DNA of 20,000 bases, taken from Candidatus Parvarchaeota archaeon (lineage in GTDB: Archaea; Nanobdellota; Nanobdellia; WJKC01). The notes under the pieces are model-generated. The model was not told where the DNA came from. It did not search any database and saw only the letters and a program-made list of their open reading frames with translations. Positions 3,393-17,194 of the stretch are shown here, in pieces. The stretch covers positions 706,885-726,884 of the forward strand of contig JAUWZX010000001.1 of assembly GCA_030615175.1 (NCBI GenBank). Reading direction: 5' to 3'. Both the position numbers and the translations under genes were made by a program. Position 1 is the first letter of the stretch; every line of letters begins with the position of its first letter.

Positions 3393-3902
3393 TTATAAGT
3401 CTTTGCTTAACCGCCAGACGTAATTTCTTGATAACCCCGTGATTCTTGCGAGTTTCCTTAATGACACCCTGCATGCCTTGTTCAGTGCTGCGCAGGCAAT
3501 TCCAGTTCCATACGCATCATTGCATAACTTTATTGCTTCACTTATCTCTTTTTCACTTAACCTTAATTCCCATCCTATCCTGCTGGCGTACATGTGAGCT
3601 TCCACTCGCCTTTGCTTTAATCCTGTCACCCTGTTCACGTATCGTTTCTGCCTCATTAATTCCCTGCTCTTCCATTCCTTAATCATTAAAGGGTAATTCA
3701 GGTTATCGCTTGCTATCATAATGCATGCCTTAACTAACTCATCCCTGTTCCTGCCCCTGGTTCCTTTACTGTTCATTAACTTCTTGTATACTTCCAGTGC
3801 TGTTCTAACTACTCTTTCAGGCAGGTAGTGTTCGCCTTTTAATTGCTGGATGATAGCGTATGCTGGCATGAATGCTTTTTTGAATGATTCCTGCTTTGTC
3901 AT
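3393..3902 (-). CDS. Transcription factor B (TFB/TFIIB)-like protein, cyclin repeats only
   Basis: LPERVVRTALEVYKK...TRGRNRDELVKACIMIAS...YPLMIKE matches TFB core repeat 1; a second degenerate repeat ends in an HTH-like SLRKLARITGLSRNYV. No CxxC Zn ribbon. Confidence 0.75.
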   Translation of the reverse strand: MTKQESFKKAFMPAYAIIQQLKGEHYLPERVVRTALEVYKKLMNSKGTRGRNRDELVKACIMIASDNLNYPLMIKEWKSRELMRQKRYVNRVTGLKQRRVEAHMYASRIGWELRLSEKEISEAIKLCNDAYGTGIACAALNKACRVSLRKLARITGLSRNYVWRLSKDL

Positions 3903-3946
3903 TGCTTTTCCTGCTTGTCTGATTCTTTATTTAAATATTTTCTTTT

Positions 3947-4636
3947 TTATAGGACTCGGTTCTTGATGTATGATTTCTTTATGCTTTTAATCTGGTTAAG
4001 GATTCTTTTGATTACGAGTTCACTGCTTAAACTGTTTATAATCAGGAAGCTCTTGTTTTCTTTCACTTCTTTAAGAAAGTCTTCCAAGCTGTCTTCTTTT
4101 CTCTTGTATAATTGTCTGGGCGACACTTGCGCTAGTGAAAGCATGTTTTCCGACATGACTGTTAAGGTTTTCATTATATTATTAGCCCATTGAGGAGTAT
4201 TTTTTTCAATTAGAAAATAAAAGTGATTTAAGATTCTGCGCCGCCCGTCAAGGTAAGATTTCCATAACGTGTTATCCCCATCGCATAACACTATGTCGTA
4301 TGATTTCTCTTCTCTTATTAATGATGATAATTCTTTAAGGCTTGTCACTGTGTAATCTGCCAGTTCATGCGCGCCGCCATTCCTGTCTATTAGCACGTTG
4401 TCAGTGATTACTTTTCCTTTCCACTTGCCTGCTTCCAGTGCTTCCTTTAAGTTGCTACCCTGTTTCAGGTCCCTGTAATTATCGCCTGCCACCATTATCT
4501 TCACAGGGTTATGTCCTTTCTTCTTATAGTATTCAATTACTTTGTAATTATCCAGGAATTTAATTACTGCTTTAATATTTGGTTTATACCCGCGGTGCAT
4601 GATGCCGTCTTCATAAGTTATTAAACCTATATTCAT
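3947..4636 (-). CDS. HAD-superfamily phosphatase, circularly permuted
   Basis: Motif III K18-P, motif IV G51-D-N-Y-R-D56 and the usual C-terminal ADYTVTSLKEL all precede motif I (IVLC-D119-G-D121-NTL) and motif II (LIIN-S202). Confidence 0.75.
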   Translation of the reverse strand: MNIGLITYEDGIMHRGYKPNIKAVIKFLDNYKVIEYYKKKGHNPVKIMVAGDNYRDLKQGSNLKEALEAGKWKGKVITDNVLIDRNGGAHELADYTVTSLKELSSLIREEKSYDIVLCDGDNTLWKSYLDGRRRILNHFYFLIEKNTPQWANNIMKTLTVMSENMLSLAQVSPRQLYKRKEDSLEDFLKEVKENKSFLIINSLSSELVIKRILNQIKSIKKSYIKNRVL

Positions 4637-4741: not shown

Positions 4742-5137
4742 ATGCTGTTCTACTCTCATGTTTTCTTTGCAGCGTTAATCTCCAGAATGCTTGGTCTAAG
4801 CCCTTTCCTTTTCATTCTTGGTTCCTTGCTGCCTGATGTGGATAATCCTAACTCTAATGTCGGCTCCTTGTGCAAGCGCTTGTCTTATTATTTGAAGGAG
4901 AATTATTCTCACCGGGGCTTGACTCATTCATTATTATTCGCCGTGCCATGCCTGTTAATTCCTTCTTTTGGCTTGGGCGTTTTATCCCATATTCTTCTGG
5001 ATTTACTGAATAAGCGCGGGGTTAGGTTATTGTATCCTAGTAAGTCATGTTTTGTTCTCCTTGGAGGCCCTTTGGTTACTGGAAAGCATGATTTCATTTT
5101 TTCAGTGTCATGCCTGGTGGTGATGCTTTTATTCTAG
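4742..5137 (+). CDS. Membrane-bound metal-dependent hydrolase (YdjM-like)
   Basis: Motifs SH, GSLLPDVD, HRGLTHSL and SHILLDLLNKRGVRLLYP. Confidence 0.85.
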   Translation: MLFYSHVFFAALISRMLGLSPFLFILGSLLPDVDNPNSNVGSLCKRLSYYLKENYSHRGLTHSLLFAVPCLLIPSFGLGVLSHILLDLLNKRGVRLLYPSKSCFVLLGGPLVTGKHDFIFSVSCLVVMLLF

Positions 5138-5889
5138 TTGGTCGTGAGGAATTAATCAGTAAAGTATTAGGTTACGTTAGTCATCGACGTTCGCTTTTCA
5201 TTAAGGCTTGCGCTGGCAGCGGGAAGACTGCTTTACTGACTCATCTTGAATTAATTATTTACAGGGCTGCTTACGCTCTTCCTCATTCTAAGAAGGAGAT
5301 TCTTTCATGCATTGCTAAACCATTAAGAGTTCCTGTTAAAGGCAGGCGCGTTTTCGAGTTGTACAGGGATGTTATTTTCGAATTAGAGTATTCTTCATGC
5401 ATTTTATTACTGGATGATGTTCATGAATTAACTAAGTCTGTTAAAGCAGTTGTTATTAAGTTATTAAGTCATGGGCTCGTAGTCATCTGCGCGGGCGAGC
5501 GCAACGTTCTTGGCCTGCCTGAGACTAATATGCCTTCATTGTCCAGGGAGGAGGTTGAGTTAATTATTAATTCAGGGCTTGAGAGGCCTGATCCTTTGCT
5601 TGCTAAATTAATCATTAATGAATGCTCTACGCCTCAGGAGGTTAATCTTGTTTTGCGCAGAGTGAAGCGTTATGATTTATCTTCCCGTGATAAGATTCAT
5701 TCATTTATTGATTCAATGCGCCGCAGGAAGAGGGAGTTAATGCCTGTATGGTCTCTGGCAATCATTATTTCATTAATGCTTTCAATGCGTTACTTTTTTT
5801 ACATGAAGCGTGAATTCCAGACTGGTTACGTTATTGCTTTCACTGCTTATTTATTAAGGGCTTTAACCAGTTTCAGGAAGCGCGGTTAG
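5110..5889 (+). CDS. AAA+/P-loop ATPase with C-terminal membrane anchor
   Basis: N-terminal LVGREE, Walker A ACAGSGKT, Walker B ILLLDDVH, two C-terminal hydrophobic helices; overlaps the upstream hydrolase gene by 28 nt. Confidence 0.8.
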   Translation: MPGGDAFILVGREELISKVLGYVSHRRSLFIKACAGSGKTALLTHLELIIYRAAYALPHSKKEILSCIAKPLRVPVKGRRVFELYRDVIFELEYSSCILLLDDVHELTKSVKAVVIKLLSHGLVVICAGERNVLGLPETNMPSLSREEVELIINSGLERPDPLLAKLIINECSTPQEVNLVLRRVKRYDLSSRDKIHSFIDSMRRRKRELMPVWSLAIIISLMLSMRYFFYMKREFQTGYVIAFTAYLLRALTSFRKRG

Positions 5890-5930
5890 AAGTAATAATT
5901 AATAAATTCAGAATACCTTGTTAATATTTA

Positions 5931-6281
5931 ATGGTTGTAACTGGTCACATAATACATAAAAGATTAAGAATTAAGGATTTTGTAGATATAATTAAGTATT
6001 ACAGTACAGAACAAATTAAATGTACTGACCATACTTTTTTCAGGCTTAGTGAAAAGCAAAGAAAGGAATTCTTAAATTGTGAAAAACTAAAAATTTATAT
6101 AACTGAAAAAATACCAATATTTGTTGGAATACAAAATAACGGGTGTTATGCCATTTATTATTCATTTAATAAGATGAACGCGTTAAAGATGATTTTGGAC
6201 GTAAAACCAAATAATATATCAATAATAACATTTTATATTATTAATAAGGTAACTATACCAAAGATGAAGTATGAAAAGTAG
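5931..6281 (+). CDS. DUF4258-like putative toxin
   Basis: IKCTDHTFFRL resembles the T.Ha..R start of the family; ends in beta-strands (LKMILDV..ISIITFY); overlaps the DUF2283-like gene. Confidence 0.6.
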   Translation: MVVTGHIIHKRLRIKDFVDIIKYYSTEQIKCTDHTFFRLSEKQRKEFLNCEKLKIYITEKIPIFVGIQNNGCYAIYYSFNKMNALKMILDVKPNNISIITFYIINKVTIPKMKYEK

Positions 6282-6651
6282 ACATTTAAAAGGTAAAGGA
6301 ATATTCGATTATGATTACATTAATGATATTCTTTTTTTTAAAACCAAAAACAGAGAGTACGCGAGGTCTGTTGAATTCGGTAACATGGTATTTGACATAG
6401 ACCCTGAAAATTTCATTATCAACATACAAATATTTGAAGCATCAAAATTCTTAGGTATTAAAAAAGTATATTTAAGGAAGGTTCCTAAATGGCGTTTTAA
6501 CGCTATCGTCCATGATGGAATTGTTGAAATTAGATTATTCTTTCAAGTGTTAATAAGGAATAAAATAATAGAGAAGAATCCTATAATCCAGCAACCAACG
6601 AATTTGCCGAATTCTAGATTGGAATGCGTTGCCGTGCCTATTAATAAATAA
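6271..6651 (+). CDS. DUF2283-like putative antitoxin
   Basis: FDYDYINDILFF...SVEFGNMVFDIDPENFIINIQIFEASKFL matches the YD..aDiLyi...v.vD.d....ivGiEi..As pattern. Confidence 0.75.
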   Translation: MKSRHLKGKGIFDYDYINDILFFKTKNREYARSVEFGNMVFDIDPENFIINIQIFEASKFLGIKKVYLRKVPKWRFNAIVHDGIVEIRLFFQVLIRNKIIEKNPIIQQPTNLPNSRLECVAVPINK

Positions 6652-7782: not shown

Positions 7783-8000
7783 CAGGCTTAATGATGTTTA
7801 AGGCATTATTCTTATTGTTATTATTAGTTATTGTTAGCGGGTGCACTTCAACTGGAGGCATTGACTGCGTTCTTAATGGTGACTGCGTGGTTTACGGTGA
7901 GTCTGGTGACTGTAATTGCGGGTGCTATAATAAGGATAATCTTCCTGTAGGGACTGGCGGCGAGTGCGTTAACGGTGAGTGTCAGGGCATTTTTGAGTAG
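7779..8000 (+). CDS. Small Cys-rich lipoprotein (possibly internally deleted)
   Basis: Lipobox IVSGC; CxxxxDC...DCNCGC...GECVNGEC; ATGA overlap with the upstream gene. Confidence 0.65.
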   Translation: MTGLMMFKALFLLLLLVIVSGCTSTGGIDCVLNGDCVVYGESGDCNCGCYNKDNLPVGTGGECVNGECQGIFE

Positions 8001-8374
8001 AGGTCTTTCCTTCTTATCTTCTCTGTGTATGATAAGTAAACGTCAATGTCAGATACTCGCTTATCCTGTTTGTTCGTTTCCAGTTTAATGCATGTTTTCT
8101 TTAATTCGTATGGGTTTATGTTTGGCGTGACTTTTAAGACGTAGCCTTTTCTTTGGCCTGCTATGAATGGGTGCCTGAAGTTCCTGAGGCAGTCTGTTTT
8201 TTTAGTGCGCAGGAATTCAATTTCAGGATATTCTTTCTCCAAGTAATGCTTTACCCGGTTAACGTATGGTTTCATGTATTTAGCCCAGCGGTCTTCTTTA
8301 ACCCAGATTTCAATGACTAATGGTTCAACAGTGCATAACCTCTTTATTCTCTGGAACAGGTTTAACCGCGTCAT
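7982..8374 (-). CDS. CitX-like (phosphoribosyl-dephospho-CoA transferase-like) protein, divergent
   Basis: C-terminal PYELKKTCIKLET...KRVSDIDVY...KIRRKDL resembles the CitX pattern LK..ci.lE.....R..DiDV....isR..l. ATG8374 is 24 nt below a TTTTTAAA box; the ORF track starts at 8395. Confidence 0.5.
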   Translation of the reverse strand: MTRLNLFQRIKRLCTVEPLVIEIWVKEDRWAKYMKPYVNRVKHYLEKEYPEIEFLRTKKTDCLRNFRHPFIAGQRKGYVLKVTPNINPYELKKTCIKLETNKQDKRVSDIDVYLSYTEKIRRKDLYSKMP

Positions 8375-8444
8375 CGAGCAAAGTGATGATTTCATTAATT
8401 TAAAAATGTTTTTATATTAATTCCTTCCTTAAGTGGGAGTAATT

Positions 8445-11167: not shown

Positions 11168-11315
11168 AAATCAACAATAAAAGAACGTTGTTTAAAAAAA
11201 CTTTCTAAATCATTATTCTATTTTCTTCAGCTATGCCTTGACTTTCTTTTTAGTGTTCTTCCTATTCTAGCGAAGAAAATGAGTAATTTAAAGGGGTAAT
11301 TGTTATATTTCTAAT

Positions 11316-11333
11316 TGTTCTTTAATAAGAACA
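11316..11333. promoter_or_regulatory. 7-bp inverted repeat touching the start of the GHKL/HK operon (candidate operator)
   Basis: TGTTCTT-taat-AAGAACA; the last A is the A of ATG11333. Confidence 0.35.
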
Positions 11334-13795
11334 TGTCAAAGAAAAATGAAGTTTTTTTTAATATAGACTCTAAGATACTATTTGAGTTAGGTGAAAAACT
11401 AGTAATAAATAGGGCAGTTGCGCTTGTAGAACTAGTTAAGAATTCGTATGACGCTGATGCAACAAAAGTCACAATTCAAATGAAGGATGTCAAAAAACAA
11501 GGAGGTACAATTATAATAAAAGATAATGGGCGTGGTATGAGTTTATCCCGTTTTAAGGAGACATGGATGAGGATAGCAACAACAGAAAAAGAAAAGAATC
11601 CAATTTCTAAAAAATATAAAAGAAGAAAAGCAGGTGAGAAAGGAATTGGAAGATTTGCATGCAGAAGACTGTCTAACAAATTGGTTTTAAAAACCATCTC
11701 CAAAATAGGTAAAAGGAATAAGGAAGAATTAAATGCGGTTTTTAATTGGCCTAAATTTACTCCTGGAACTGATGTAAATGAAGTTCCTATCGAATACACA
11801 ATCAAAAGGACAGATAAAGGAGAGATAGGCACTACTTTAATCTTGGAGAACACTAGAGATTCATGGAGTTGGAGGGATATTAACAAACTCAGAGAGGAAT
11901 TGACTTCTTTAGTTTCCCCTACAACTCTTAAAGAGAAAAGGATTAATAAAAAGATTGACCCAGGATTTAATATAGAGTTTGATTTGCCTGAATTCGAGTC
12001 GAAAACAAAGCCTTTAGATAAAACCTTTTTTATAAATGCTTGGGCAAAGTTGTTTGGACATATTGATAAGAATGGGATTACAGAATATAAGATAGAAGTG
12101 ATTAAAAAAATTGAGAATAAAATTAAAAAAACATTTAAACGAAAAGAGAGATTTAAAAATTTAAAAAATGTTAATTTTCAAATCCACATTTTTGTTTATT
12201 CAAGTGAATTCTTTAAAGATTCCGAATGGGCCCTTAGCAAGGCGAGACAGATTAGTACAGAAAAAGGAGGAATCAAGGTGTATGCTGATAGTTTTAGAAT
12301 ATTTGGTTATGGAGAATCCGGCGATGACTGGTTAAAAATTGATCGTGATAGGGCCAGATCCAGAACAGTTGTAGATAAAGAGGTTTCTATTTTTGCAAAA
12401 GAAGCTAAAAGACCAGGTTTGCATTTATTCAGGAATCAAGCTCTTTTTGGTCATGTATTATTTTCAAAGGAAGACAACCCTAAATTAGAGATTTCTATAA
12501 ATAGGGAGAGGCTAATAAAAAATAAAGCATTTGAGGAGTTAAAACAGTTTGTCAGGTTGGGAATAGATTTTGCTACAATTTTATATGCAAATGAGATTGT
12601 TCAAAAGGAAAAAAAGAAAAAAGAAAAGAAAAGAAAAGAGGGGGAAAAAGTACAAGAAGAAGTTAAGGAAGAAATACATAAAATTGAGGAATTAATCAAG
12701 AAATCTAAAGAGAAAATAATAAAGGCTAAAAAGAGAGTAAAAAAAATTGAAGAAAAAATAAAAAGAATAGAAGGAGATAAAAAAGAATTAGAGAAAACGC
12801 ATATAAAATTAGGTGAAAAATTATTAAATGTTAGTAGTCCAAAATATAAAAATAAGATTAAAGACATCCTGCAGGAGGAACAGAAGAATCTAAAATTAGA
12901 AAAAGGACTAAGAGAAGAAGAAAAGAAAGCCAGAAAAGAATTAGAAAAAATACAAGATGAGTCTGAGAATATAATTCTAAACTCTATAAAAGAAAGTATT
13001 GTAGCAACTGAAAAACTAGAAGAAATTTATCGGCAAGAAGTAGTACAGGAAAAAGAGGAAATTAAACATATTATGATTTTAGCTGCAACAGGCACCCTTA
13101 TACTAATATTTGGTCACGAGATTATTGCATTTATAACCAATATTGAAGAGCTTATTAAAAAAATTTCCCCTTTGTTACAAAAACCAAAAAAAATCAAAGA
13201 GGAAACAATAAAAGAATTAGAAAAATATATGAAGGAACTTAAAATTAAAAAAGAAATGATGAAAGAAATGGGAAGTTTAATTGGATTAATCTCAAGCAGG
13301 GAAAGTAGACTTGAAAGAAAGGAATGGGTCTTATTACCAATAGTAAAAGAAGTTTTCAAACCATTTAGAGAATATTTAAAGGAGACTATTGGAATAAAAT
13401 ACGAATTTTCAATACACAAAGCTTTAAGGACACCAGAAATGCACCGTTCTGAGATATTTTCAATCTTACATAATTTATTGACAAACTCAGTTAAAGCACT
13501 TAAAGAGGTTGAAAAAAGAAAAATAGAAGTTAGAGCATTAGAAAACAATAAAAATGTTTGTATATTATTCCTTGATACAGGAATTGGTGTTAAAAAAGAA
13601 AGAAGGGAGAAAGTGTTTGAAATGTTTGAAAGCACTAGTGAACCTGACATGGAATTTGGTGTAGGAACAGGATTGGGACTATATTTGATTAGAGAAATAA
13701 CGAGGTCTTATGGTGGAGATGTTAAATTCATTGATGCACCAAAAGGATGGAAAACTTGTGTTGAAATTATTTTGCCAAAGGATGTGAAAAAATGA
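11333..13795 (+). CDS. MORC-like GHKL ATPase / coiled coil / histidine kinase fusion
   Basis: N-terminal GHKL motifs ALVELVKNSYDADA, IKDNGRGM, GEKGIGRFA, GTTLIL; S5-like region GGIKVY..FRIFGYG..DDWL...NRERL; long K/E coiled coil; H-box FGHEI (His codon 13115-13117); HATPase HNLLTNSVKA, DTGIGV, VFEMF, GTGLGLYL. No TM segment. ATG11333 preferred over TTG11315. Confidence 0.9.
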   Translation: MSKKNEVFFNIDSKILFELGEKLVINRAVALVELVKNSYDADATKVTIQMKDVKKQGGTIIIKDNGRGMSLSRFKETWMRIATTEKEKNPISKKYKRRKAGEKGIGRFACRRLSNKLVLKTISKIGKRNKEELNAVFNWPKFTPGTDVNEVPIEYTIKRTDKGEIGTTLILENTRDSWSWRDINKLREELTSLVSPTTLKEKRINKKIDPGFNIEFDLPEFESKTKPLDKTFFINAWAKLFGHIDKNGITEYKIEVIKKIENKIKKTFKRKERFKNLKNVNFQIHIFVYSSEFFKDSEWALSKARQISTEKGGIKVYADSFRIFGYGESGDDWLKIDRDRARSRTVVDKEVSIFAKEAKRPGLHLFRNQALFGHVLFSKEDNPKLEISINRERLIKNKAFEELKQFVRLGIDFATILYANEIVQKEKKKKEKKRKEGEKVQEEVKEEIHKIEELIKKSKEKIIKAKKRVKKIEEKIKRIEGDKKELEKTHIKLGEKLLNVSSPKYKNKIKDILQEEQKNLKLEKGLREEEKKARKELEKIQDESENIILNSIKESIVATEKLEEIYRQEVVQEKEEIKHIMILAATGTLILIFGHEIIAFITNIEELIKKISPLLQKPKKIKEETIKELEKYMKELKIKKEMMKEMGSLIGLISSRESRLERKEWVLLPIVKEVFKPFREYLKETIGIKYEFSIHKALRTPEMHRSEIFSILHNLLTNSVKALKEVEKRKIEVRALENNKNVCILFLDTGIGVKKERREKVFEMFESTSEPDMEFGVGTGLGLYLIREITRSYGGDVKFIDAPKGWKTCVEIILPKDVKK

Positions 13796-14877
13796 AAAAA
13801 GTAAATGTAATATATATAGACGACTCAGAAGAAGAACTTGAAAAGTATAAAAAGAAATTTGAGAAGAATAATAAGGCACAAAGGCTTTTCAAGATAATTC
13901 CAATACAATCTCAAGAATTAAAACGTGATGAAATTTCAACTCTTCCAATAAAAGGAGCTGCTTTGGTACTAATGGATTATGATTTGAGTTATCGTTCAAG
14001 TGATGAGAAGACAAGTCCTTTTTTTGGAATATCATTAGCAACTGGGATAAAACAAAAATTTTTTGATGTACCAATAATACTTTTCATGAGGCGGGGCATA
14101 TTTATTCAATATCAAACAATTGTCAAAAAGTATCCAAACGTAGTGATTGACATAATTTTGAAAAGAAATTTATTTAGGAAAAAAGAAAAATTAGATTATC
14201 TTTATAATCTTGCTATGGATTTTTATAAACTTAGTAGAGTTAAAAATAAAGGATTAAATAAATTATTGGAATTGCTAAAAGTGCCAAAAGAAGACTCTAA
14301 TAGTATTAAACTTGCGAACCCACCCCTTAATAAAAAAGGTTTGTGGTCAGTTTCAGAGATATCAAAATGGATTCGAAAAATTTTATTAGCATACCCAGGT
14401 ATTTTATATGACCCCATTCATGCAGCTACTTTTTTAGGACTATCCAAAAAATCCTTCCTGAAAAAAGAAGTTCAAAAATTCTTCAAAGATGCGAAATATG
14501 AAGGTGTTTTTGCACCAGCAGACGGAAGATGGTGGAAATCAAAGTTACAAAAAATTGCTTTATCTATAGTAGAAATTGAAATGAAGGCCATACCTATACG
14601 TAAGAGTTTTCCTGAATCTTGGGAAAATAAAAAGGGTAGAATTAATAAATCAAAATGTGTTTTTAGTAGAAAATCGCCTGCAGAATGGGTATGTTGTATC
14701 TTAAAGAAACCAATCATGCTTAGATACTCTTTACCATACCATAAGGATAATCGCCCAGTAATTATGGACGAGGCGAGGATTTCCTATAAAGCTATAAGAG
14801 AATCTAATGAAATTAACGATGATTTTCTCGATTTAGCAGATAAACCATTATTGAAAAAAATTAGAAATAAAAGATGA
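13792..14877 (+). CDS. Response-regulator receiver protein with uncharacterised Cys-containing C-terminal domain
   Basis: VIYID10-D11, LVLM-D62-YDL, G..LA..IKQKFFDVPIILF, K124; C-terminal YPGILYD...YEGVF...RWWKSKL...CVFS...VCC. ATGA overlap with the kinase. Confidence 0.8.
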   Translation: MKKVNVIYIDDSEEELEKYKKKFEKNNKAQRLFKIIPIQSQELKRDEISTLPIKGAALVLMDYDLSYRSSDEKTSPFFGISLATGIKQKFFDVPIILFMRRGIFIQYQTIVKKYPNVVIDIILKRNLFRKKEKLDYLYNLAMDFYKLSRVKNKGLNKLLELLKVPKEDSNSIKLANPPLNKKGLWSVSEISKWIRKILLAYPGILYDPIHAATFLGLSKKSFLKKEVQKFFKDAKYEGVFAPADGRWWKSKLQKIALSIVEIEMKAIPIRKSFPESWENKKGRINKSKCVFSRKSPAEWVCCILKKPIMLRYSLPYHKDNRPVIMDEARISYKAIRESNEINDDFLDLADKPLLKKIRNKR

Positions 14878-15626
14878 TAATTATGCATTTAAAAAGTTAT
14901 CCTGCTATCTTAAAAAGATTAAACCACCACATCAAACCTTTTTTGGATGCAAGTTCTCACGATACACTACATCAAGTAGCAGATAATTTTATTGAGAAAG
15001 AGGAAAAAAGGAAAATAATATGGCATATTAAAATATCAAAACAATATCCTTTGTTGTTTTCAACCACAAAAGATCTTAATTTTCCTTTACAAGTAGATCT
15101 TTCTTGCAACATAAAAGGAGAATTTAATAAACAAGATTCCACTAATAAAGTGGAAAAACATAATGCAATTATTAGCGTATGGTCTATGGATAAAAAATTA
15201 AGCTATAGAAAAAAAATAGATGCTAAAAATATTAAAAAACCACTTGAAAATTCAGATTGGAGAAGAGTTATATTACGCTTTCACATAGATAAAAAATCTC
15301 CTAATAATAATTTTGAACCTTTATATCATTTACATTTTGGGGGCAAATGTAAAAATGATGAATTTTGTTGGTTTCCAGAAAAAGTATCTGAACCAAGATT
15401 TCGTTTTTTTCCTATGGATGTGGTTCTTTTGTGTGAATTTATTCTAACAAACTTTTTTCCAAAAGAATCTCTTGATTTGAGAGCGAAGCGCGAGTGGATA
15501 ACTCTTGTTAGAAAATGTCAAGAAGCATACTTAGAATCTTATATAAATCAATGTAGAAGATTTTTGAATAATAATGATAATACATTTTTAGGGTTTTTGA
15601 TAAAAAACAAGGAGTTGTATAAATGA
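14874..15626 (+). CDS. Uncharacterised protein with RFHID / PLYHLHFGG / PR..PMD motifs (DUF2290-like, candidate effector)
   Basis: 250-aa ORF joined by ATGA overlaps on both sides. The family resemblance is from memory of the motif only. Confidence 0.6.
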   Translation: MIIMHLKSYPAILKRLNHHIKPFLDASSHDTLHQVADNFIEKEEKRKIIWHIKISKQYPLLFSTTKDLNFPLQVDLSCNIKGEFNKQDSTNKVEKHNAIISVWSMDKKLSYRKKIDAKNIKKPLENSDWRRVILRFHIDKKSPNNNFEPLYHLHFGGKCKNDEFCWFPEKVSEPRFRFFPMDVVLLCEFILTNFFPKESLDLRAKREWITLVRKCQEAYLESYINQCRRFLNNNDNTFLGFLIKNKELYK

Positions 15627-17194
15627 AGTTAAAAGAAACTCCTAAGAGTCATATAAAAAATCATGAACTTACAGAATATGCTGAAAATTTAACTAATATT
15701 TATTTAGGTTTAACGGATTCAAATCATCGCAAAAAAAATGAGCAATTTTTTACACCAAAAGAAGTAGCTATGTTAATGGTTCGCCAGTTCGACAATTTAA
15801 GTAAAAAATCAAAAATTAAAATATTAGACCCTGGGGCCGGAATAGGTATTTTCGAGAGTACAATATGTGAATTCTTATTATCTAAAAACATAAAATCGGA
15901 AATATTATTCGAAATATATGAAAAAGATGATAAAATACTGCCCTTTCTCAAAAAAAATTTAGAACATTGTAAAAGATTAATGTCTAAAAAAAATACAAGA
16001 ATAAGTTACAATATAAATAATTCTGATTTCATTTTAGAAAACTCTTTTATCCTGAAAGAAAATAAAAAATTGGATTTAAAATATTGTTTTGATTTTATAA
16101 TTTGCAATCCTCCTTATCAAAAAACAAATGAATATTTGAAGAGTAATAAAAATTTAAAAGAGATAGTAAAAAACCAGCCTAATATGTATACGTTGTTTAT
16201 GACCTTAGCCTCTAAATTATTGAAAGCAGGAGGAGAATTGACTTTTATAACACCAAGAAGTTATTGCTCTGGTTTATATTTTAAGCATTTCAGAAAATCA
16301 TTCTTAAATGAAATTAAACCAACTAGAATACATATCTTCAATTCGAGAAATAAGGTATTCAAAAAATACAATGTATTACAAGAAATAATAATTTTGACTG
16401 GTTTAAAGACAAAAAAGTCACCCAAAAAAGTTATAATAAGTAAGAGCGAAGGCATACCTCATAAAATAAAAAAATTAGAAAAAAGAAAAACGATTTTTGA
16501 AAATGTAATTGTTAAAAAAGGAGATGGGGTCATCATAAAAGTACCTCTTTCTGATTTTGAAGAAAAATTAACTAACAAATTAAATACTTTAAAATTTAAA
16601 ATGCCTGAATTAGGAATAAAAGTTTCAACTGGGCGTGTTGTTCCTTTTAGATCAAAAAAGTTTATAATAAAACATTTCAAAAAACATCAAAAACATTATC
16701 CTTTGATTTGGATGCAAAATATCCAAAATGAAAAAGTTAAGTGGCCTTTAAATAATAAAAAACCCATAGCAATTAAAAAAGAGGATGGCTGTGCTAATCT
16801 TTTAGTACCTAATCAAAATTATGTGTTAGTGAAAAGATTTAGTGCTAAAGAAGGGGAAAGAAGAATTTGTGCCGGAGTTTTATTAAATTCCATGACTAAT
16901 TATGAATATATTGGAATTGAAAATCATGTAAATTATATTCATAAAATCAATGGAAATTTAACGGTTCAGGAAACTTATGGGATAACTGCATTGCTGAATT
17001 CAAAAATTTACAATATTTATTTTCAAACAGGTAATGGTAGTACACAAGTAAATGCATATGAATTGGAAACGCTGCCACTACCATCACTTAAAAAAATTAG
17101 AAAGATAGGAAGATTAGTTATGAAAAATAAAAAAGCAAATATTGACAAGATACTCGCTAACAAATTAAATTTGCCTTATAATTCTAACTTTTAA
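15623..17194 (+). CDS. N6-adenine DNA methyltransferase, gamma class (Eco57I-domain, BsuBI/PstI-like)
   Basis: QFFTP, motif I ILDPGAGIG, motif IV IICNPPY, PNMYTLF, FITPRSYCSGLYF, VSTGRVVPFR, ENHVNYIH and GSTQVNAYEL..LPLP. Confidence 0.92.
   Translation: MKLKETPKSHIKNHELTEYAENLTNIYLGLTDSNHRKKNEQFFTPKEVAMLMVRQFDNLSKKSKIKILDPGAGIGIFESTICEFLLSKNIKSEILFEIYEKDDKILPFLKKNLEHCKRLMSKKNTRISYNINNSDFILENSFILKENKKLDLKYCFDFIICNPPYQKTNEYLKSNKNLKEIVKNQPNMYTLFMTLASKLLKAGGELTFITPRSYCSGLYFKHFRKSFLNEIKPTRIHIFNSRNKVFKKYNVLQEIIILTGLKTKKSPKKVIISKSEGIPHKIKKLEKRKTIFENVIVKKGDGVIIKVPLSDFEEKLTNKLNTLKFKMPELGIKVSTGRVVPFRSKKFIIKHFKKHQKHYPLIWMQNIQNEKVKWPLNNKKPIAIKKEDGCANLLVPNQNYVLVKRFSAKEGERRICAGVLLNSMTNYEYIGIENHVNYIHKINGNLTVQETYGITALLNSKIYNIYFQTGNGSTQVNAYELETLPLPSLKKIRKIGRLVMKNKKANIDKILANKLNLPYNSNF

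What the first reader, a model, noticed from the sequence alone, without database searches (positions are those of the whole stretch)
3947..4636. Circularly permuted HAD phosphatase (motif order III-IV-I-II)
Seen: the protein starts with what is normally the second half of a HAD (LITYED..YKP; MVAGDNYRD; ADYTVTSLKEL), runs through a short linker (SSLIREEKSY) into the normal N-terminus (DIVLCDGDNTLW), a cap-like helical region, then FLKEVKENKSFLIINSLSSELVIKRIL (motif II). All catalytic residues are present in one ORF. Established: canonical HADs have DxD near the N-terminus and order I-II-III-IV. Inference: a natural permutation, for example from tandem duplication and trimming, that standard HMMs would hit only partially.
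Basis: partly seen in the sequence, partly recalled or inferred. Interest (0 to 1): 0.75.

Follow-up and report, generated by a model that had tools for sequence, protein, structure and literature searches.

The report
Circularly permuted archaeal HAD phosphatase family
This gene of a tiny-genome archaeon encodes a member of the very common HAD enzyme family with the usual second half of the chain placed first, a layout shared by relatives in two archaeal families; it keeps all four catalytic motifs and is likely a working magnesium-dependent phosphatase whose substrate is untested.

Summary
Confirmed. ORF 3947-4636 (-), 229 aa, carries the HAD motifs in the order III-IV-I-II. Against an independent canonical HAD-IA profile, the 28-member family profile aligns as two crossed pieces in native order. 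Rotated at residue 111-114 it gives one full-length alignment (E about 3e-15; shuffled controls far lower). It is not a chimera: full-length relatives with this order occur in 13 of 401 genomes of the class, all in two families, and a contig of a related strain bridges the junction. D119 and D121 are invariant (28 of 28). The AlphaFold model is confident (pLDDT 87.5), but I could not measure active-site distances. The single protein gets no significant Pfam, NCBIfam or fold hit, and rotating it alone gains nothing. A genome of the same genus holds a second permutant, cut elsewhere but with the same new junction, which fits duplication, fusion and trimming. The cap helix is unusually hydrophobic; the substrate is unknown. 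Six literature searches found no natural HAD permutant. This scan earlier noted a Cof-type HAD with the same order on other DNA (e1-9909958, not checked). Verdict: new variant of a known kind; interest 0.55.

The parts
3947..4636 (-). ORF for the circularly permuted HAD protein, 229 aa (P0001)
   Evidence: family alignments
4580..4633 (-). aa 2-19: canonical strand S3 and motif III (GYKP, K18), now at the N-terminus
   Evidence: strand E2-6 in the model; aligns to canonical 129-145; K 23/28
4469..4504 (-). aa 45-56: strand S4 and motif IV (GDNYRD; D52, D56)
   Evidence: E45-51; aligned to the canonical GDsxxD; tally
4310..4411 (-). aa 76-109: strands S5 and S6 and the canonical C-terminal helix (ADYTVTSLKEL)
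   Evidence: E76-83, E95-97, H100-109; matches the C-termini of solved HADs such as 2hoq 150-227 and 1x42 190-228, weakly
4298..4309 (-). aa 110-113: new junction between the canonical C-terminus and the canonical N-terminus
   Evidence: rotation optimum at 108-114; bridged by contig 17 of run X4; L100-to-D119 spacing 18-20 in 28/28
4262..4297 (-). aa 114-125: strand S1 and motif I (DGDNT; D119 nucleophile, D121 acid/base by analogy)
   Evidence: E115-119; D119 and D121 28/28
4094..4249 (-). aa 130-181: helical insert at the C1 cap position; the most variable part, with a hydrophobic helix
   Evidence: H130-146 and H149-168, pLDDT 48-78 over 131-170; 20 of 51 positions differ from P0002 against 13 of 178 in the core; hydropathy
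3998..4093 (-). aa 182-213: helix, strand S2, motif II (S202) and following helix, now near the C-terminus
   Evidence: H184-193, E197-201, H206-213; aligns to canonical 86-121

Best explanation
The gene encodes a HAD-superfamily protein with its motifs in the order III-IV-I-II, likely a Mg2+-dependent phosphatase derived from a C1-capped HAD-IA ancestor by circular permutation. The chain is opened between the helix after strand S2 and strand S3, and the old C-terminal helix is joined by about four residues to strand S1 (shown by alignment). The core is predicted to refold into the normal HAD sheet, so the normal chemistry would apply: D119 attacks the substrate phosphate to form a phospho-aspartate, D121 acts as acid/base, S202 and K18 hold the phosphate, D52 (with D56) holds Mg2+ (inferred from motif conservation). 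The cap at 130-181 would set specificity. Its hydrophobic helix flanked by basic residues makes a membrane-near or lipid-like phosphomonoester my preferred substrate class, at only about 0.3. The most likely origin is one event of tandem duplication, in-frame fusion and trimming, followed by gene duplication into two paralogous lineages that both occur in both carrier families (inferred).
For: Rotation test: crossed pieces in native order, one full-length alignment at cut 111-114, null maximum 25.9 of 40 against 82-83. The family profile hits solved HADs in two non-colinear pieces: profile 121-228 to 3mc1 4-128, and profile 8-119 to 2hoq 150-227 and cN-III 183-250 (E 0.01-0.05, weak). Catalytic residues are conserved across members at 19-88% identity to the query. 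The model has pLDDT 87.5, pTM 0.85, and each motif sits at the end of the expected strand (motif positions as defined in PMC8069645, passages). A low-confidence model of the C-terminal half of a relative had YniC (1te2, residues 6-146) as best match and the only Z>=5 of 48,161 chains (Z 5.2, rmsd 3.3, 71 aligned; weak). The closest canonical proteins, P0025 and P0030, score as HAD_2/Hydrolase. Permuted members form one side of a branch (SH-aLRT 99 with caps, 28 rows; 88 without caps, 23 rows). Best 18-residue hydropathy of the cap is >=0.7 in 28/28 members and 2/30 canonical controls (medians 1.08 and 0.29). Second permutant P0035 shares the junction (E 9e-8; 26.8 bits).
Against: No activity or expression data. 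Rotation of single sequences mostly gives no gain; no member reaches a full-length hit against the canonical profile (best 15.8 bits; P0001 5.2). The cap does not align locally with canonical caps. 9 of 28 members have Asn at the first acidic position of motif IV, so part of the family may be weakly active. Single origin is not starred once caps are removed (88). No HAD-HAD fusion was found. The query's own cap is at the low end of the hydrophobicity range (0.8) and lacks the Arg that most relatives keep there. Gene neighbours differ between lineages and give no substrate.
Confidence: 0.75

Rival explanations
1. The permutation is real, but the protein is a soluble house-cleaning nucleotidase or DNA-end phosphatase, and the hydrophobic cap helix is a packing or dimer surface rather than a membrane anchor. 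This differs from the best explanation only in substrate and is a sub-case of 'active HAD'.
For: The short paralog follows Hjc and an Ogg glycosylase gene in 6 of 8 loci inspected. The long paralog precedes a metallo-beta-lactamase-fold hydrolase in 8 of 8 family-f3 loci. Most members are basic (pI 7.6-10.0). A named carrier lacks de novo nucleotide synthesis (10.1101/728089, passages).
Against: These neighbourhoods are each confined to one family and so are not independent; neither holds in the window's own family. Many canonical controls are just as basic.
Confidence: 0.35
2. The permuted protein is a catalytically dead or degenerate HAD kept as a binding protein or regulator.
For: Far from all canonical models; Asn for Asp in motif IV in 9 of 28; the genome also has four proteins over the PF13419 cut-off that could supply the activity.
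Against: DxD is 28/28 and T123 27/28 at identities down to 19%. Two of the four canonical-order paralogs in the genome have lost part of DxD, while this family has not.
Confidence: 0.15
3. The layout arose by fission and re-fusion of two half genes, or more than once, rather than by one duplication-and-trimming event.
For: No duplicated intermediate found; no HAD remnant in the 2.6 kb around the ORF; the two carrier families are not sisters in a quick EF-2 tree (2 changes needed, though starred branches force only 1).
Against: A second permutant with another cut but the same junction is what trimming one tandem fusion at two places predicts (model as described in PMC3320104, passage). The permuted rows cluster together in both trees.
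Confidence: 0.2
4. Assembly chimera or chance motif matches in an unrelated Rossmann-like protein.
For: Whole-model fold searches list methyltransferases and RecA-like ATPases at Z 6-9 rather than HADs.
Against: Same order in 13 genomes and many metagenome proteins; junction bridged in run X4; rotation test. The aligners used follow chain order, so a permutant is expected to score poorly against its own family (inference).
Confidence: 0.02

Closest known systems
HAD subfamily IA (C1 cap) phosphatases: Pfam HAD_2 PF13419 / Hydrolase PF00702; PGP-, PpaX- and YniC-like; solved examples 3mc1, 2hoq, 1te2
   Same: All four motifs, their strand context, the helical insert after motif I, and the C-terminal 'ADYxVxxLxEL' element. 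The nearest canonical sequences found are P0025 and P0030.
   Different: Chain order is III-IV-I-II; the termini lie between S2 and S3; the cap is not alignable and is more hydrophobic; the window's protein has no significant HMM hit.
Natural circular permutants of enzymes explained by 'permutation by duplication' (DNA methyltransferases, saposin/swaposin; PMC3320104, passage)
   Same: Same kind of rearrangement; more than one cut point is seen among relatives (P0035).
   Different: Here in the HAD fold; no full or partial duplicated intermediate was found.
CheY-like receiver domains
   Same: Known to share the Mg2+ and phosphate site with HADs in a non-sequential relationship (PMC10400377, passage citing Ridder and Dijkstra 1999; original not held). 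From recall, the CheY order corresponds to IV-I-II-III, one element away from this family's order. A REC domain (6swl) appears weakly in the Foldseek list (E 0.028).
   Different: This family keeps HAD sequence motifs, a cap and HAD-IA ancestry, and is confined to two families, so it is a late derivative and not an ancestral link.
Permuted Cof-type (HAD-IIB) phosphatase noted earlier by this scan (e1-9909958)
   Same: Reported motif order III-IV-I-II.
   Different: Another genome and another HAD subfamily by that note; no sequence look-alike was found for P0001. Not checked here.

Membership tests
HAD superfamily phosphatases | Motif I DxDx(T/V) at the end of strand S1 | tested here: met
   D119-G-D121-N-T123 after strand E115-119; 28/28, 28/28, 27/28
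HAD superfamily phosphatases | Motif II Ser/Thr at the end of strand S2 | tested here: met
   S202 after E197-201; S/T in 26 of 28 rows; aligned to canonical S2
HAD superfamily phosphatases | Motif III Lys at the start of the helix before S4 | tested here: met
   K18 before H22-30; 23/28 in column, the other 5 have an invariant Lys two columns on
HAD superfamily phosphatases | [quoted passage not shown] | tested here: met
   G51-D52-x3-D56 after E45-51; D/N at 52 in 19/9 of 28, D56 23/28, DD in the other 5
HAD superfamily phosphatases | Rossmannoid core with sheet order 54123 and all motifs meeting at one site | tested here: inconclusive
   Confident model with the expected strands. Order-dependent fold searches list no HAD among the top rows for the whole chain; the half model gives YniC at Z 5.2. 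Distances could not be measured.
HAD superfamily phosphatases | Squiggle and flap after S1 | tested here: inconclusive
   The model shows short bridge or strand residues at 121 and 125-126 before the cap; not compared in 3D
HAD superfamily phosphatases | Mg2+-dependent hydrolysis through a phospho-aspartate | not testable with these tools
   needs an assay
Canonical HAD-IA (PF13419 / TIGR01549) | Motif order I-II-III-IV with DxD near the N-terminus | tested here: not met
   Order III-IV-I-II, DxD at residue 105-154 in 28/28
Canonical HAD-IA (PF13419 / TIGR01549) | Score above the curated cut-off | tested here: not met
   No HAD_2 or TIGR01549 hit for P0001; 6 of 20 members hit HAD_2 weakly, best E 0.0023
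Canonical HAD-IA (PF13419 / TIGR01549) | Helical C1 cap between motifs I and II | tested here: met
   Helices 130-146 and 149-168 lie between D119 and S202; the cap sequence itself does not align locally
CheY-like receiver domain | Sequence or structure match to the REC fold without a cap | tested here: inconclusive
   No Pfam REC hit; one weak Foldseek row; the protein has a cap and HAD motifs

The most novel reading that the evidence does not exclude
One fused tandem HAD gene in these DPANN archaea was trimmed at two different points, giving two living permutants of the same enzyme (III-IV-I-II in a two-family clade, and tail-first I-II-III-IV in P0035). The first then gained a new membrane-binding cap and works on lipid-linked phosphates taken from a host. 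Together with the Cof-type case noted elsewhere by this scan, this would show that the HAD core has a recurrent permissive cut before motif III, that such enzymes are invisible to current HMM and fold annotation, and that a HAD can work in a near-CheY connectivity.
Probability: 0.2. Interest if true: 0.75.

Novelty: new variant of a known kind. Interest (0 to 1): 0.55.

Why it matters
The HAD fold is one of the most common and best-studied enzyme scaffolds, and the sources I read describe it with one motif order. A conserved natural permutant shows where the core tolerates new termini. It supplies a natural test of the permutation-by-duplication model, since a second cut point exists in a sister genome, and of the known non-sequential HAD-CheY relationship. 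In practice, these proteins are labelled hypothetical and are missed by Pfam, NCBIfam and order-dependent fold searches, so an enzyme activity is missing from metabolic reconstructions of two DPANN families. It is a new arrangement of known chemistry, not a new system.

Tried and rejected
Pfam on the whole protein and on each half: no HAD family. ESM Atlas feature and structure searches: nothing usable. Foldseek and VIA-align on the whole model: no HAD among the listed rows; methyltransferases, RecA-like ATPases and periplasmic-binding folds at Z<=9.1, which I read as topological look-alikes of the new strand order (strand orders recalled, not tested). Foldseek on the half model (pLDDT 64): nothing at E<=0.001. 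Rotation of P0001 against a first canonical set gave 30.4 to 31.9 bits with no full-length hit; 12 of the 16 proteins in that set had been found with the family's own N-half, so I set it aside. In one search only 11 proteins from 30 loci passed my pattern; redid the set with 33 proteins from all 30 loci. Search for longer (481-2000 aa) fused forms: none among 7992 scored candidates, weak evidence. No ORF with two HAD domains in 29 canonical loci. No relative of P0001 in viral or metagenome contigs by pattern scan. No RNA holder listed. No PADLOC hit for five permuted proteins. No informative promoter, terminator or repeat around the ORF. In the class searches 14 further genomes matched only the N-half at E 1e-5 to 5e-4; 10 of these loci were read as canonical-order HADs and 4 were not examined; 3 weak hits were not examined either. 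The careful tree did not finish, so only quick trees are quoted. Literature searches for a permuted HAD found none: I read passages of six listed papers and saw the rest only as listings. Burroughs et al. 2006 and Ridder and Dijkstra 1999 were not read and could bear on novelty.

Full report
Observation. The ORF at 3947-4636 (-) encodes 229 aa. It lies between a TFIIB-repeat protein gene (3393-3902, same strand) and a divergent YdjM gene (4742-5137). The genome has 1.0 Mb in 5 contigs. A relative is named 'Candidatus Nanoarchaeia archaeon' by its source, so this is a DPANN archaeon.

The single protein is almost invisible to standard tools. Pfam gives no HAD family for the whole chain or its halves. 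NCBIfam gives TIGR01681 at E 0.061 over residues 115-210. PDB sequence search and the ESM Atlas give nothing useful.

Family. Homologue searches gave 3, then 11, then 26 proteins, 16 of them at E<=1e-10 among 1.84 billion representatives. In 401 genomes of the class, full-length matches occur only in family f1 (4 of 4, the only family of its order) and family f3 (8 of 9, the ninth): 13 of 401. Fourteen other genomes matched only the N-half; 10 were read as canonical HADs and 4 were not examined. One member lies in a named record (L073) of 'Ca. Tiddalikarchaeum anstoanum', order Tiddalikarchaeales (10.1101/728089, passages), and f3 is likely that family. All 28 aligned members have the permuted order. 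There are two paralogous lineages, a long one (215-274 aa, including the window's gene) and a short one (about 198 aa). The window's genome has both (second copy at C5:420719-421315), as do several f3 genomes. In a quick EF-2 tree f1 and f3 are not sisters, though this is not forced by starred branches. An old origin with losses and a transfer between orders both remain open.

Test of the permutation. I built a canonical HAD-IA profile from 33 proteins in 30 loci fetched with PF13419, independently of the query. In native order the family profile aligns in crossed pieces. Locally these are 5-109 to 129-202, 182-217 to 86-121 and 113-134 to 4-25. Globally they are 1-121 to 117-219 and 114-241 to 1-151. 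Rotating the alignment gives a peak at cuts 108-114, with one full-length global alignment at probability 98.6-98.7 and E 2.5e-15 to 4e-15. Forty block-shuffled controls scored at most 25.9 against 82-83. The same crossing shows weakly against solved HADs. Against this reading: single sequences gain little or nothing from rotation (P0001 4.6 to 5.2 bits; best member 15.8), and the cap does not align locally.

Not a chimera. Besides the 13 genomes, a contig from run X4 covers 3568-4517 in one piece, with 70 differences and 18 bases of deletions inside the cap, across the junction at 4298-4309. The X1 contig ends 27 bases past the junction and is not counted; X2 and X3 do not cover it. P0002 (86% identical) shows the same six-residue shorter cap. 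Differences from P0002 fall in 20 of 51 cap positions and 13 of 178 core positions, the pattern of a constrained core.

Structure. AlphaFold with 20 sequences gave pLDDT 87.5 and pTM 0.85, low only in the cap. The elements are strand 2-6, K18, helix 22-30, strand 45-51 ending in GD, helix 54-69, strands 76-83 and 95-97, helix 100-109, strand 115-119 ending in D119, cap helices 130-168, helix 184-193 and strand 197-201 ending in S202. These match S3, motif III, S4/motif IV, S5, S6, the C-terminal helix, S1/motif I, a C1 cap and S2/motif II as defined in PMC8069645 (passages). Whole-chain fold searches returned methyltransferases and RecA-like ATPases at middling Z and no HAD among the listed rows. 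This is what order-dependent aligners would give for a permutant (inference), but it is no confirmation. A low-confidence model of the colinear C-terminal half of a relative (pLDDT 64) had the HAD-IA enzyme YniC, residues 6-146, as the only Z>=5 hit of 48,161, with four more HAD-fold chains in the top 50, three of them aligned at their N-terminal part; Foldseek found nothing significant. I could not measure active-site distances.

Mechanism. By conservation and established HAD chemistry, D119 would be the nucleophile, D121 the acid/base, S202 and K18 the phosphate ligands and D52/D56 the Mg2+ ligands. I put the permutation at about 0.95 and an active phosphatase at about 0.75-0.8. The substrate is open. 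The cap's best 18-residue hydropathy is at least 0.7 in 28 of 28 members and in 2 of 30 canonical controls (members are related, so this is not 28 independent observations). That suggests membrane contact or a dimer surface; the window's own protein is at the low end (0.8). Neighbours differ by lineage: a metallo-beta-lactamase-fold gene follows the long paralog in 8 of 8 f3 loci, Hjc and Ogg precede the short paralog in 6 of 8 loci, and neither holds in f1.

Origin. Trees of rotated members with canonical HADs place the permuted rows on one side of a branch (SH-aLRT 99 with caps, 28 of 70 rows; 88 without caps, 23 of 60 rows after dropping 11 near-copies, long branches and one truncated row). 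The canonical proteins P0025 and P0030 are nearest. Tandem canonical HAD genes exist in this class (three in L045, two in L049). A weak hit in G001, same genus as the window's genome, proved to be a second permutant, P0035 (L093:3028-3720). It starts with the canonical tail (S5, S6, C-terminal helix), continues with motifs I-II-III-IV (PF00702 over 44-217) and stops soon after motif IV. Its residues 16-58 match the family profile straight across the junction (26.8 bits; E 9e-8). Against the canonical profile its N-terminal piece scores only E 0.04, and rotating it gives no gain. It groups next to the family with weak support (80) and is a singleton in 401 genomes. Two cuts sharing one junction are what trimming of one tandem fusion predicts (PMC3320104, passage), but any permutant must join the same two ends, so convergence is not excluded. 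No fused intermediate was found.

Known and new. It works like a HAD-IA phosphatase and meets the four motif criteria of the HAD superfamily, but fails the order and score criteria of canonical HAD-IA. Six searches of the held library found no natural HAD permutant (passages read concern other folds or general remarks). HAD and CheY are cited as a non-sequential pair (PMC10400377, passage). Subscription literature, including Burroughs et al. 2006, was not read. This scan had noted a Cof-type HAD with the same order in another genome (e1-9909958; unchecked) and no look-alike of this sequence.

Verdict.

Noticed in passing
L093:3028-3720 (+) (G001:C2, same genus as the window's genome): A second, different HAD circular permutant (P0035): canonical tail first, then motifs I-IV. 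GTG start overlaps the stop of an upstream PLP-decarboxylase gene; a 36-nt imperfect direct repeat covers its 3' end and recurs 84 nt later. Singleton in 401 genomes.
   Followed up: partly
G000:C5:420719-421315 (+) (L010): Short paralog of the permuted family in the window's own genome, near a gene that looks Sua5-like (name from recall); G001 has the same neighbour.
   Followed up: partly
window 3393-3902 (-): 169-aa protein with a TFIIB repeat and a C-terminal HTH but no N-terminal zinc ribbon; close relatives in all three other f1 genomes, three copies in G002.
   Followed up: partly
   Followed up: no
window 11315-17194 (+): Low-GC (25-34%) four-gene block: a protein with two GHKL ATPase domains, two genes without Pfam hit (the first looks like an N-terminal receiver domain, by eye), and a type II adenine methyltransferase (PADLOC E 3e-110); looks like an acquired defence island.
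   Followed up: partly
window 4742-6651 (+): YdjM-family membrane protein, a small AAA/STAND-like ATPase with C-terminal hydrophobic segments, and a small gene pair whose second member is DUF2283.
   Followed up: no
window 7982-8395 (-): 137-aa protein just over the Pfam CitX cut-off on a partial match; no citrate lyase genes recognised among the window's ORFs.
   Followed up: no
L013:1273-1935 and L014:258-977 (own genome): Two canonical-order HAD_2 paralogs with a degenerate motif I (second Asp missing) and motif IV; possibly inactive or non-phosphatase.
   Followed up: no
L045 and L049: Tandem arrays of three and two canonical HAD-IA genes in other genomes of the class, two of them with abutting frames.
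   Followed up: partly
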